64,000 bases of DNA from the NCBI RefSeq assembly GCF_009914755.1, contig NC_060925.1, one strand, 5' to 3'. Each line of letters opens with the position of its first letter. Position 1 is the stretch's first letter. This DNA comes from the human T2T-CHM13v2.0 reference genome, Homo sapiens. Shown piece by piece: positions 48,519-50,304 of the stretch. A program made the position numbers and the translations under genes. The notes under the pieces are model-generated. The model did no database searches. It had not been told where the DNA came from and worked only from the letters and a program-made list of their open reading frames with translations.

Positions 48519-49870
48519 GCTGCCAATCTCTTCTGGCTTGTAGGTTTTCACCTGAAAGGTTTGCTATTAACCTGATGGGGCTCCCTTTGCAGGTTACTTC
48601 CCATTTTTCTCTGTCTGCCTTTAACATTTTTTTCTTTTATTTTAATCTTGGAGACTATGTGTCATGGGGATGATCTGATAAACATATGTCTTGGGAATGG
48701 TCTTCTTGTGTAGTATTTTTCAGGGGTTCTATGCATTTCTTGAATTTGAATGTTTACCTCTCTAGTGAGGTTGGGAAATTTTTCATGAGTGGATCCTAAA
48801 ATATGTATTTCACGTTGCTTGCTTTCTCTCATTCTCTCAGGGATGCCAATGAGTCATAGATTTGGTGTCTTTACATAATCCCATATTTCATGGAGGTTTT
48901 GTTTATTCTTCTTTATTGTTTCTTTCTTTTGGTCTAAGTTATATCAGTGAGCTCTGACACTGTTTCCTCAGCTTGGTCAATTCTGCTGTTAATACTTGTG
49001 ATTGTATTCTAAAATTCTTGTAATGAGCTTTTCAGCTTTATCTGATCAGATTGGTTCTTTCTTAAAATACCATTTCATTTTTCATCTACTATGTCATTTC
49101 ATTATCTTCCTTAGAATCCTTGGATTGAATTTTTACTTTCCCCTGAATGTCAGTGATCTTCCTTCCGATCCAAATTCTGAATTCTTTTTCTGGCATTTCA
49201 GCCATTTCAGCCTGATTAAGAACCATTGCTGGGAAACTAATACAGTTATCTGGAAGTAAGAAGACACTCTGGCTTTTTGAGTTGCCAGAGTTTTTGTCCT
49301 GGTTCTTTCTCTCTTTGGGGGCTGATATACCTTTAATCTTTGAAGCTGCTGTCGTTTGGATGGATTTTGTTTTGATTTTAGCTTCTTTAATATCCTTGAG
49401 GGTTTGATTATAGTCTAAGATGGGTTCAGTCTACTGGCTTCATTTCTGAAATAGTTTAGGGGGCTAAGGCTCAGCTCAGTACTCCAGTGTTGCGTGCTCT
49501 ATCTCTGGGTGGCAGGTATTGGGCTCTCGGCTTTGTTCTCTGGCCCATCGTGTTTAGGAACCTGCTACATTGGAGGAGCTGAGGTGTTACCAGACCACTG
49601 GGTGGTAACAATGCCTCCAATGGGTTGTGGCAGCCAAAGTTTTTTGTAAGAGGGCAGCGGCAGGTTCTGTGCTTGTTTGCACCTGCCAGCACCAGTGATA
49701 GCATGGCAGGGTGCATGCTTATTGCCTAGGGTGTGGCTCTGGTGGGCATGAGACTGCTGGCCTCTGAATGGACGTTCATAGTAGTGGTGGTGGCAGCTTA
49801 GCAAGCGGGTGGTTGTGGGGCAACAGGTTTCTGCATGTGTGTTTGCACCAGTGGTGGTGGTGGTGCAGGA

Positions 49871-50002
49871 ATGTAGTACTCAAAGTATAGGGTTTTTTTT
49901 TTTTAATTCAATTGAAGTTGTTATATGATTAAAATATACATTTTATAAGCTTATGATGTTTTATGTATTCTCCATTTCTAAAGGTGATCACAAAGAAAAT
50001 TC
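49871..50002 (+). mobile_element. Old L1M fragment (ORF1 end / inter-ORF region), antisense within the chimeric insert
   Basis: AAAGTATAGGGTTTTT..AATTGAAGTTGTTATATGATTAAAATA..ATGATGTTTTATGTA..GGTGATCACAAAGAAAA resembles L1M AAGTTGTTATCAG..AAGATGTTTTATGTAAGCC..GGTAACCACAAAG. Confidence 0.65.
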
Positions 50003-50304
50003 CTGGGTGTTTGGCTATGTCTCATGGCTCTTCACATTACATGGCTCTTTTATTTGCTCCAGACAGGTGATGAGGTCTGGCTTAGAGATTTTAAGACCCT
50101 AGGAAACCAGGTTTCTGTAGTTATCTAACATCACATTCTTATACAAATTCTGCTGTGCAGAGTTCAGTCATTCCTACTCCTCCAGAGAGAATTCTATGGC
50201 CTTTTTCCTGAATGTTAACAGTCTGTGCATTCCATAGGGTGACAAAAGTTGTGGCAGAGTCACCTCTGCCTCCCAGAGCTGAGGATAAGGAACAATGGAT
50301 ACAG
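50003..50304 (-). pseudogene. Processed KRAB zinc-finger gene 5' fragment (leader, KRAB-A and KRAB-B exons, ZNF91-type clade), no zinc fingers
   Basis: Minus 50224-50098 (127 nt) = [40 protein letters not shown]. Minus 50097-50003 (95 nt) = [26 protein letters not shown]/AKHP. No intron between them. Three stops and one 1-nt deletion. Confidence 0.95.

What the first reader, a model, noticed from the sequence alone, without database searches (positions are those of the whole stretch)
49315..50003. KRAB-B exon spliced to a cryptic antisense-L1 exon that runs into an L1 with a truncated 5' UTR (possible promoter replacement)
Seen: KRAB similarity stops precisely at the canonical B-exon end (...AAACACCCAG, 50003) and continues GAATTTTCTTTGTGATCACC. 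This is neither a GT donor nor a zinc-finger exon. The following ~130 nt resembles antisense L1M, where I recall TAG|GTTTTTGCTTTGTGGTTACC offering an AG acceptor at this position. The downstream L1PA keeps only about 550 bp of 5' UTR and no recognisable 5' terminus. Inference: the source L1 had lost its own internal promoter and was driven by the ZNF promoter. The same RNA would be a finger-less, KRAB-only isoform that truncates the host repressor gene while carrying L1 ORF1 and ORF2 downstream.
Basis: partly seen in the sequence, partly recalled or inferred. Interest (0 to 1): 0.7.

Follow-up and report, generated by a model that had tools for sequence, protein, structure and literature searches.

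The report
Zinc-finger gene leader fused to L1
An ancient jumping-gene copy (L1) that had lost its own start region landed here carrying the spliced first three exons of a KRAB zinc-finger gene, most likely because it was transcribed from that gene's promoter, a recently described way for crippled L1s to keep moving.

Summary
Everything lies on the minus strand.

- **One insertion.** A 6.7-kb block (50304 to 43575) sits inside an older L1. The two host flanks are contiguous in 11 of 11 intact relatives, overlapping by 14-17 nt. That overlap is a target-site duplication.
- **Contents, 5' to 3'.**
  - A short form of a ZNF91-family exon 1.
  - The KRAB-A and KRAB-B exons, spliced exactly (Pfam KRAB, E = 1.2e-16).
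  - About 119 nt from intron 3 of that gene family. This piece starts just after an AG acceptor supplied by an antisense old L1.
  - An L1 with a complete 3' end that lacks about 1.1-1.2 kb of its family's 5' UTR.
- **Favoured mechanism (about 0.6).** A 5'-truncated L1 sat in intron 3. It was transcribed from the ZNF promoter, spliced through the cryptic acceptor, and retrotransposed.
- **Main rival (about 0.2).** The reverse transcriptase switched template onto a polyadenylated short ZNF transcript.
- **Negative results.** No second copy of the junction was found in this genome. No source L1 was found in 26 paralogous introns.
- **Novelty.** The class was published in 2026 (Law & Burns, 17 loci). 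This locus is not among them, so it is a new, older member of a known kind.
- **The KRAB-only-protein claim is weak.** The exon 1 form used lacks the canonical ATG.

The parts
50305..53700 (-). Older host L1, part 5' of the insertion. It holds ORF1 domains and runs into the ORF2 reverse-transcriptase region.
   Evidence: 40 matches to dispersed L1 copies at 71-77%. Pfam Transposase_22 and Tnp_22_dsRBD; colinear with 11 relatives.
50305..50321 (-). Upstream copy of the target-site duplication (aataaatgccatatata).
   Evidence: The host flanks overlap by 14-17 nt on 11 of 11 intact relatives. 14 of 17 bases are identical to the downstream copy.
50225..50304 (-). ZNF91-family exon 1, short form. 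It ends at an internal donor (..gcag|gt in the genomic paralogs L071 and L072) and lacks the 53-54 nt that carry the canonical ATG.
   Evidence: alignments to 6 processed copies and 2 genomic chr7 exons. L006 shares the same short form.
50099..50224 (-). KRAB-A exon (126 nt), spliced to exon 1 and to KRAB-B. It contains stop codons.
   Evidence: Pfam KRAB, E = 1.2e-16; chr19 exons match at 83-89%. Searches give the exon borders.
50003..50098 (-). KRAB-B exon (96 nt), ending at the canonical donor position. It has a 1-nt frameshift near its end.
49884..50002 (-). Cryptic exon derived from intron 3 of the ZNF family, itself an antisense remnant of an old L1 (ORF1 end / inter-ORF region). It includes the A12 run at 49904-49893. 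The 3' limit is uncertain by about 3 nt.
   Evidence: inside intron 3 in 6 paralogs with mapped exons; colinear antisense L1; homology continues past the A run.
43575..49881 (-). L1 in sense orientation. Its 5' UTR is truncated by about 1.1-1.2 kb. ORF1 and ORF2 are decayed. The 3' end is complete with a very short, degenerate A tail. About 5.6 kb is L1 once later insertions are subtracted.
   Evidence: family copies; a common 5' edge in 6 of 6. (Transposase_22, Tnp_22_dsRBD, RVT_1). (3' end).
48150..48525 (.). Later insertion of an unnamed interspersed repeat inside L1 ORF1.
   Evidence: the same element occurs in L015 and L018 at 71-72%; it splits the two ORF1 domains.
47027..47334 (.). Later insertion of about 300 bp inside L1 ORF2. 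I read it as an Alu; the name is my reading and no tool gave it.
   Evidence: many ~280-300-nt matches at 75-85% in unrelated loci. The hub table masks 47027-47322.
43558..43574 (-). Downstream copy of the target-site duplication (aataaaggccctatata). Its first 6 bases could instead be a remnant of the L1 A tail.
41400..43557 (-). Older host L1, continuation 3' of the insertion (ORF2 to the 3' end).
   Evidence: colinear with the same 11 relatives; sequence reading.

Best explanation
**Claim.** This is a single L1-mediated retrotransposition of a chimeric RNA.

**Proposed sequence of events.**
1. In a ZNF91-family KRAB zinc-finger gene, a sense-oriented L1 sat in intron 3. It had lost about 1.1-1.2 kb of its 5' UTR and so, by inference, its own promoter.
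2. It lay about 120 nt downstream of an AG acceptor contributed by an antisense old-L1 fragment.
3. Transcription from the ZNF promoter gave an RNA spliced in this order: exon 1 (short form), KRAB-A, KRAB-B, cryptic acceptor.
4. That RNA ran on through the intronic bridge into the L1 and ended at the L1 3' end.
5. The L1's own proteins copied this RNA into an older L1 on chr1 by target-primed reverse transcription.

**Shown.**
- The anatomy.
- The exact exon junctions.
- The intron-3 origin and antisense-L1 nature of the bridge.
- The truncation of the L1.
- The single pair of duplicated target sites.

**Inferred.**
- That the source L1 lay in that intron.
- That the ZNF promoter drove it.
- That the L1 was coding-competent at the time.

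The new copy carried exons but no promoter and left no detectable progeny.
For: **One insertion.** The host flanks are contiguous with a 14-17 nt overlap in 11 of 11 relatives. The duplicated strings are shown.

**Spliced leader.**
- Pfam KRAB, E = 1.2e-16.
- The exon borders equal those of the genomic paralogs.
- The short form of exon 1 is documented.

**Bridge from intron 3.** In 6 paralogs the piece lies between the KRAB-B exon and the start of the finger exon, on the same strand.

**Acceptor.** An AG sits exactly before the first bridge base in L015, L019 and L022. L022, L015 and L019 are colinear antisense L1.

**The bridge continues past the A12 run.**
- 12 of 29 related sequences match the 11-mer after the run at 9 of 11, and 13 more at 8 of 11.
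- The background rate for 9 or more of 11 is 3.0e-4 per position.
- L085 and L088 read acaaaacctatact. That is the exact 8-mer cctatact directly after the A-rich run, as in the window.
- The A12 therefore sits where every paralog has an A-rich run.

**L1 truncation.** 6 of 6 full copies share a common left edge. In four of them it lies about 1,155-1,180 nt upstream of the point matching window 49795-49863. In the other two it lies 617 and 948 nt upstream, which I read as internal deletions.

**L1 3' end.** It is complete.

**Published precedent.** Law & Burns 2026 (PMC13174262) describe the same logic for RAP1GDS1-L1PA2, with a cryptic acceptor 15 bp upstream of an intronic L1. I read sections 13, 14 and 21.
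Against: **No source locus.**
- 0 of 26 cluster paralog introns examined have an L1 after the piece.
- Only the window itself spans the junction (3 candidates, all scored).

**The A12 run.**
- It is uninterrupted, and 0 of 28 relatives have more than about 6 A's at that spot.
- A templated origin needs a C-to-A change plus an expansion of the run. A poly(A) tail would explain it directly.

**The cryptic acceptor.** AG is absent from 0 of 7 alignable cluster paralogs today, which read AA instead. The parent must have kept the ancestral AG.

**Target site and tail.**
- The 3' A tail is very short and degenerate.
- The cleavage context (gc/aata) is not the textbook TT/AAAA.

**Weak L1 homology at the junction.** In the first ~18 nt after the junction, homology is only about 50% to L024 (my count on the strings). 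The junction is therefore placed to within about 3 nt only.
Confidence: 0.6

Rival explanations
1. Template switch during one retrotransposition event. The reverse transcriptase copied an L1 RNA from its 3' end to about 1.1-1.2 kb short of its 5' end. It then jumped onto the poly(A) tail of a short, finger-less ZNF transcript (exon 1, KRAB-A, KRAB-B, and a cryptic terminal exon polyadenylated at ...caattgaat) and copied it to its 5' end. On this reading the A12 is that poly(A) tail.
For: - The A12 at 49904-49893 is uninterrupted, and none of 28 relatives has such a run.
- A single target-site duplication also fits this model.
- Some L1 copies resemble the bases after the run. L062 shares ccct, then a, then agtac, and most differences are transitions.
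- Chimeras with an A tract between an mRNA and an L1 are in print: the RPL21 row of Table S5, PMC13174262.
Against: - The bases after the run match the intron paralogs far better than chance. They match 9 of 11 in 12 sequences against a background of 3.0e-4. There is also an exact 8-mer adjacent to the run in L085 and L088.
- The run sits exactly on the paralogs' A-rich stretch.
- There is no canonical poly(A) signal. The nearest candidate is tataaa, 37 nt upstream (my reading).
- No other retrocopy of such a short isoform was found. In one search none of the 11 other copies is preceded by the KRAB-B exon. The 43 matches were not examined for what lies upstream.
- Local alignment of the 29 nt after the run to four L1 copies is no better than shuffles.
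- Published switch chimeras carry short L1 3' pieces, not 5.6 kb (passages).
Confidence: 0.2
2. Two independent insertions at the same spot. First a 5'-truncated L1 inserted into the host L1. Later a processed copy of a short ZNF transcript landed in, or re-used, the upstream target-site copy. On this reading the A12 is its tail and ccctata is a third copy of the target.
For: ccctata follows the A12 (49892-49886) and also occurs in the downstream target copy (43565-43559). The upstream copy reads ccatata.
Against: - A duplication starting ccc is a poor L1 endonuclease site. All 17 duplications in Table S5 start with A-rich strings.
- Re-use of the full 17-mer would need aataaagg to have turned into aaaaaaaa.
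- The same 7 bases are explained by intron homology, which extends further.
- The model needs an exact landing at the L1 5' edge.
Confidence: 0.04
3. Trans-splicing. The ZNF pre-mRNA and a separate L1-containing RNA were joined before reverse transcription, with no L1 resident in the ZNF gene.
For: Law & Burns propose this for 15 of their 17 cases that lack an intronic L1 (section 20 passages). No source L1 was found here either.
Against: The L1 is joined not to an exon end but to about 119 nt of ZNF intron sequence. The paralogs show no donor site at the bridge-L1 junction (ttttccag|tttg). No AG-defined start could be shown in the L1 (ambiguous).
Confidence: 0.06

Closest known systems
RAP1GDS1-L1PA2 promoter co-option (Law & Burns, Cell Genomics 2026, PMC13174262; sections 14 and 21 read)
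   Same: - First exons of a host gene are spliced to a cryptic acceptor a short way upstream of an intronic L1.
- A piece of intron bridges the two.
- The L1 lacks part of its 5' UTR.
- The whole is flanked by one target-site duplication.
   Different: - There the source L1 is found in the intron, four copies exist, and RNA reads support the splice.
- Here no source and no second copy were found.
- Here the bridge is about 119 nt (15 bp there) and contains an A12 run.
- Here the L1 is far older (copies 70-78% alike).
- Here the loss is a 5' truncation, not an internal splice deletion.
mRNA/LINE-1 5'-transduction chimeras, 17 loci in hg38 (same paper, Table S5 read in full)
   Same: - Sense 5' exons of a gene are joined to a near full-length L1.
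- Target-site duplications are 9-17 bp.
- One listed case uses exon 1 of ZNF681, another chr19p12 KRAB zinc-finger gene.
   Different: - This locus is not among the 17 rows. None is on chr1 near 187-188 Mb.
- Three exons plus a TE-derived cryptic exon are carried here.
- The 3' A tail is almost gone.
Bipartite chimeric retrogenes made by template switching (U6-L1 and mRNA-L1 types; recalled from Buzdin and colleagues, and described in passages of PMC13174262)
   Same: Two RNAs lie in the same orientation inside one target-site duplication. An A tract lies at the internal junction.
   Different: Those usually join a complete small RNA or mRNA 3' end to a short L1 3' piece. Here the L1 is 5.6 kb and the A tract coincides with templated A-rich intron sequence.
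SVA exon trapping (the MAST2-SVA subfamily; recalled, no paper opened)
   Same: A host first exon is spliced into a retrotransposon lying in an intron, then mobilised as a 5' transduction.
   Different: There the acceptor is inside the SVA and the product founded a subfamily. Here the acceptor lies in a separate old L1 fragment and there is no progeny.

Membership tests
mRNA/LINE-1 5'-transduction chimeric insertion | One target-site duplication flanks both parts. | tested here: met
   11 of 11 relatives show a 14-17 nt overlap of the two host flanks. 14 of 17 bases are identical between the copies.
mRNA/LINE-1 5'-transduction chimeric insertion | The 5' part maps to the first exons of a gene, in sense orientation to the L1, with exon-exon junctions. 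| tested here: met
mRNA/LINE-1 5'-transduction chimeric insertion | Near full-length L1 (over 5 kb). | tested here: met
   49881-43575 is 6.3 kb, or about 5.6 kb after subtracting two later insertions.
mRNA/LINE-1 5'-transduction chimeric insertion | L1 endonuclease-type target and a 3' poly(A) tail. | tested here: inconclusive
   The duplication starts aataaa, with context gc/aata. The tail is reduced to aagaaaataaa-like bases that overlap the duplication.
mRNA/LINE-1 5'-transduction chimeric insertion | Both parts arrive at the same node in a multi-species alignment. | not testable with these tools
   No other primate genome is held.
Promoter co-option by a 5'-compromised intronic L1 (RAP1GDS1 type) | A source L1 is present in the host gene's intron, downstream of the cryptic acceptor. 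| tested here: not met
   0 of 26 cluster paralog introns. No other junction-spanning locus. The parent gene itself was not identified, so this is absence in what survives in one human genome.
Promoter co-option by a 5'-compromised intronic L1 (RAP1GDS1 type) | An intron-derived bridge lies between the cryptic acceptor and the L1. | tested here: met
Promoter co-option by a 5'-compromised intronic L1 (RAP1GDS1 type) | The L1 lacks its promoter region. | tested here: met
   About 1.1-1.2 kb of the family 5' end is missing. That the promoter lies in that part is inferred from other L1 families.
Template-switch chimeric retrogene | The 5' part ends at the true 3' end of its RNA (a poly(A) tail) at the junction. 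| tested here: inconclusive
   The A12 is present, but it sits on templated A-rich sequence and is followed by 8-11 nt of intron-like bases.
KRAB domain (Pfam PF01352) | Profile match above the curated cut-off. | tested here: met
   60.5 bits against a cut-off of 20.4. Read through 3 stops, and a frameshift lies near the B-box end. It is a pseudogene fragment.
   No Dfam or Repbase library is held. Family copies are 70-78% identical.

The most novel reading that the evidence does not exclude
KRAB zinc-finger genes of the ZNF91 family, the genes that evolve to silence L1, may have served repeatedly as launch pads for L1s that had lost their own promoters.

**Three independent ZNF-leader/L1 fusions now exist.**
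- This locus.
- chr4:78.53 Mb (L006), where KRAB-B abuts what I read as an L1PA-type 5' UTR.
- The published ZNF681-L1 fusion.

**Shared features.**
- Two of the three share the same short, ATG-less exon 1 form.
- Those two possibly share the same antisense-L1 acceptor.

**A further pattern.** The sampled present-day paralogs have all lost the AG of that acceptor. That could reflect selection against this leak.
Probability: 0.15. Interest if true: 0.6.

Novelty: new member of a known kind. Interest (0 to 1): 0.4.

Why it matters
L1 lineages have replaced their 5' UTRs several times in primate history (recalled; no paper opened for this), and how they do so is not settled. Fusions of host 5' exons to near full-length L1s are the proposed raw material. 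Only 17 were catalogued in 2026, with one clear case of an intronic, promoter-dead L1 rescued by a host promoter.

This locus would be a second candidate of that kind, and much older. It carries an informative intron bridge that argues for cis read-through rather than trans-splicing.

It also shows the limit of the route. Exons, not the promoter, are copied, and the copy founded nothing. The donor being a KRAB zinc-finger gene is a curiosity that becomes interesting only if the recurrence holds up.

Tried and rejected
- **Poly(A) tail first guess.** I first read the A12 as a poly(A) tail, and the bridge as the sense 3' end of an L1M (a recollection). One search showed the bridge is antisense L1. 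Searches showed that paralog homology runs through and past the A run.
- **Parent gene.**
  - Exon 1 alone (83 nt) found only itself.
  - KRAB-A matches many chr19 and chr7 genes at 83-89% with no clear winner.
  - The bridge is 74-83% identical to all copies. The post-run bases are closest to L085 and L088.
- **Source L1.**
  - The junction-spanning search found only the window itself.
  - None of the top 40 of 1058 L1 5' UTR candidates lies in the ZNF clusters. The remaining candidates were not scored.
- **Internal repeats in the L1 5' UTR.** Self-BLAST found none. Short-word hits do show a motif recurring about 70 nt apart.
- **L006 (chr4).** I tried to resolve it as a second clean chimera. 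The locus is rearranged and I left it unresolved.
Only about 90-nt pieces of 18 further paralogs were read.
- **Literature.** Searches found no report of this locus. Only Law & Burns was opened.
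Full report
**Where and what.** The feature lies on the minus strand of the window (human T2T chr1:187.41 Mb, per the hub table). Coordinates below are window coordinates and run from high to low.

**The KRAB part is real and is spliced.**
- Reading 50233-50015 through three stops gives [69 protein letters not shown].
- Pfam KRAB matches it at E = 1.2e-16, 60.5 bits against a cut-off of 20.4, covering profile positions 2-42 of 42.
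- A whole-genome search with 49893-50300 returned 51 matches.
  - Chr19 (20-24 Mb) and chr7 (65-66 Mb) genes match as two separate exons about 600 bp apart. These are query 78-205 (KRAB-A) and 213-299 (KRAB-B).
  - Eleven dispersed copies match the two exons joined.
- In genomic paralogs the A exon ends ..ccttg|gtgagg and the B exon ends ..ccccag|gtaggt.
- In the window the exons are joined without introns. KRAB-A is 50224-50099 and KRAB-B is 50098-50003.
- The match to every genomic B exon stops at 50003/50002.
- Six ordinary processed copies (L002, L003, L005, L007, L008, L009) continue into the finger exon. The window does not.

**Exon 1 is a short form.**
- Upstream of KRAB-A, 50304-50225 aligns to exon 1 of the family.
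- Genomic exon 1 of two chr7 paralogs (L071, L072) reads ..cctgcag gtactggg..gggaaaatg|gtgagt. It is therefore one exon with the ATG at its end.
- The six ordinary copies contain that whole stretch.
- The window and L006 both lack exactly the 53-54 nt from the internal gt to the canonical donor.
- The copied RNA therefore used an internal donor and lacked the canonical start codon.
- Today's sequence does hold an in-frame ATG at 50230-50228. I cannot tell whether it predates the insertion.

**The bridge (50002 to about 49884).**
- A search with 49880-50010 scored all 12 first-look candidates: the window itself and 11 others at 74-83%.
- Eight of the 11 lie in the chr19 or chr7 ZNF clusters, on the gene strand.
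- I mapped the start of the finger exon with a retrocopy-derived probe and the KRAB exons.
- This places the piece inside intron 3 in six paralogs. For example, on chr19:
  - KRAB-B lies at 20,242,576-20,242,663.
  - The piece lies at 20,249,043-20,249,137.
  - The finger exon starts at 20,255,143.
- No C2H2 motif lies between KRAB-B and the piece in L065.
- The three non-cluster copies (L015, L019, L022) sit inside colinear antisense L1 sequence.
- Two cluster paralogs (L014, L017) also have the same antisense L1 segment downstream.
- The position corresponds to the end of ORF1 and the inter-ORF region of the host L1.
- L022 reads ctgtag|gtattttctttgtggttacc, L015 reads ccatag|atattttc and L019 reads tataag|tactttc. 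An AG thus precedes the first bridge base in 3 of 3.
- The 7 alignable cluster paralogs read AA there.

**One insertion, not a mosaic.**
- Sequence above 50305 and below 43574 belongs to one older L1.
- Both flanks map colinearly on 11 of 11 intact relatives, and the subject coordinates overlap by 14-17 nt.
- The duplicated strings are aataaatgccatatata (50321-50305) and aataaaggccctatata (43574-43558), identical at 14 of 17 positions.
- The L1 3' end aligns to another L1 right up to that copy's poly(A) tail. The window's tail is only an aagaaaataaa-like stretch that overlaps the duplication.
- The duplication is therefore 11-17 bp long.

**The L1.**
- Pfam finds both ORF1 domains and RVT_1 in decayed frames.
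- Family copies are 70-78% identical over the 5' UTR and ORF1. With sensitive scoring, homology reaches 49863-49869.
- I fetched six copies with 5 kb of upstream sequence.
  - All six share a consistent left edge.
  - In four of them that edge lies about 1,155-1,180 nt upstream of the point matching window 49795-49863.
  - Two have shorter distances (617 and 948 nt), which I read as internal deletions.
- The window's L1 therefore lacks about 1.1-1.2 kb of a roughly 1.8-kb 5' UTR.
- No tool here can name the subfamily.

**The A12 problem.**
It could be a poly(A) tail, and this changes the mechanism.
- I compared 28 related sequences. Of these, 26 come from the ZNF clusters or their relatives, and 18 were read only as pieces of about 90 nt.
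- All of them carry an A-rich run at that spot (for example tacaaaaactatgcctctatattttccag in L012 and tacaaaacctatactgttatattttccag in L085). None has more than about 6 A's.
- The window's 11 bases after the run (ccctatacttt) match:
  - 9 of 11 in 12 of 29 sequences;
  - 8 of 11 in 13 of 29;
  - 7 of 11 in 4 of 29.
- Across 49,360 positions of the same intron loci, only 3.0e-4 reach 9 of 11.
- In L085 and L088 the 8-mer cctatact follows the A run directly, exactly as in the window.
- After that point similarity to the introns falls to background. Weak similarity to the L1 family begins there (agtac..).
- I conclude that the run is more likely a templated A-rich stretch that gained one C-to-A change and expanded. 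The intron-L1 junction then lies at about 49884-49881.
- A poly(A) tail is not excluded. Local alignment of the 29 nt after the run to four L1 copies is no better than shuffles. One copy, L062, does resemble them if transitions are forgiven.

**Mechanism.**
- **Cis read-through.**
  - It explains the exon-only leader, the exact acceptor and the intron bridge.
  - It also explains the truncated but coding-length L1 and the single duplication.
  - It is the mechanism shown for RAP1GDS1-L1PA2 by Law & Burns (sections 14 and 21 read).
- **Template switching.** It explains the A12 more simply. It also needs three things:
  - a polyadenylated short isoform without a good signal;
  - a chance match of L1 bases to the intron;
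  - a chance placing of the tail on the intron's A run.
- **Two separate insertions.** This needs a poor endonuclease site and an exact landing.
- My odds are 0.6 for cis read-through, 0.2 for template switching, 0.04 for two insertions and 0.06 for trans-splicing. The rest is unassigned.

**No progeny, no source.**
- Only the window contains the KRAB-B/bridge junction and the bridge/L1 junction.
- None of the 26 cluster introns read has an L1 after the piece.
- One search lists 43 matches to the intron segment.
- The insertion copied exons, not the promoter upstream of them. The lack of descendants is therefore expected, and 'promoter replacement' overstates the outcome.

**Literature.**
- Four searches led to one directly relevant paper: Law & Burns, Cell Genomics 2026 (PMC13174262). 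I read its outline, sections 13, 14 and 21, passages, and Table S5 in full.
- It lists 17 mRNA/L1 chimeras. None is on chr1 near this position or on chr4 near 78 Mb.
- One of the 17 joins exon 1 of ZNF681 (chr19p12) to an L1 on chr3.
- The authors call RAP1GDS1 the first case of a disabled intronic L1 co-opting a promoter and splicing.
- Supplements mmc1, mmc6 and mmc7 (PDFs) could not be read.

**Verdict.**
- The kind of element is already described.
- Interest is moderate.

Noticed in passing
L006 / L058 (G000 chr4:78,534,9xx; L058 about 5923-6614): A second ZNF-leader/L1 fusion.
- It has the same short, ATG-less exon 1 form and spliced KRAB-A/B.
- At the exact KRAB-B end comes attttttgagcaaggg..., followed by about 380 nt that I read as an L1PA-type 5' UTR. 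That label is my recollection; no tool named it.
- No A tract lies at the junction.
- The locus is then broken by an inverted L1 segment whose breakpoints coincide (window-equivalent 49330 and 49341).
   Followed up: partly
L004 (chr2:83.22 Mb) and L010 (chr20:17.24 Mb): Two copies have KRAB-A and KRAB-B joined but run on into sequence resembling the start of intron 3 (compare ..cccag|gtaggtg.gagtgaa in L065). They look like copies of transcripts that retained or ended in intron 3.
   Followed up: no
Cluster paralogs L012, L013, L014, L016, L017, L020, L021 versus L015, L019, L022: The AG of the cryptic acceptor is AA in all 7 alignable ZNF-cluster paralogs. It is kept in the 3 non-cluster antisense-L1 copies. 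The surviving genes have therefore lost this acceptor.
   Followed up: partly
window 49881-49200, and loci L024, L059-L064: This L1 family has an unusually long 5' UTR of about 1.8 kb. A C-rich motif (..ccaccaccac..ggtgcaaac..) recurs about 70 nt apart.
   Followed up: partly
window 48150-48525: An unnamed repeat of about 375 bp is inserted in L1 ORF1. The same element occurs near the intron piece in L015 and L018 at 71-72% identity.
   Followed up: no
window 53500-55000: A stretch of 48-51% G+C with positive GC skew lies just beyond the host L1's ORF1. It may be the host L1's own 5' UTR.
   Followed up: no
G000 chr14:84,756,174-84,756,284 (L095): A copy of the intron-3 segment lies outside any ZNF cluster. 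It reads straight through the A-rich run without a tail.
   Followed up: no
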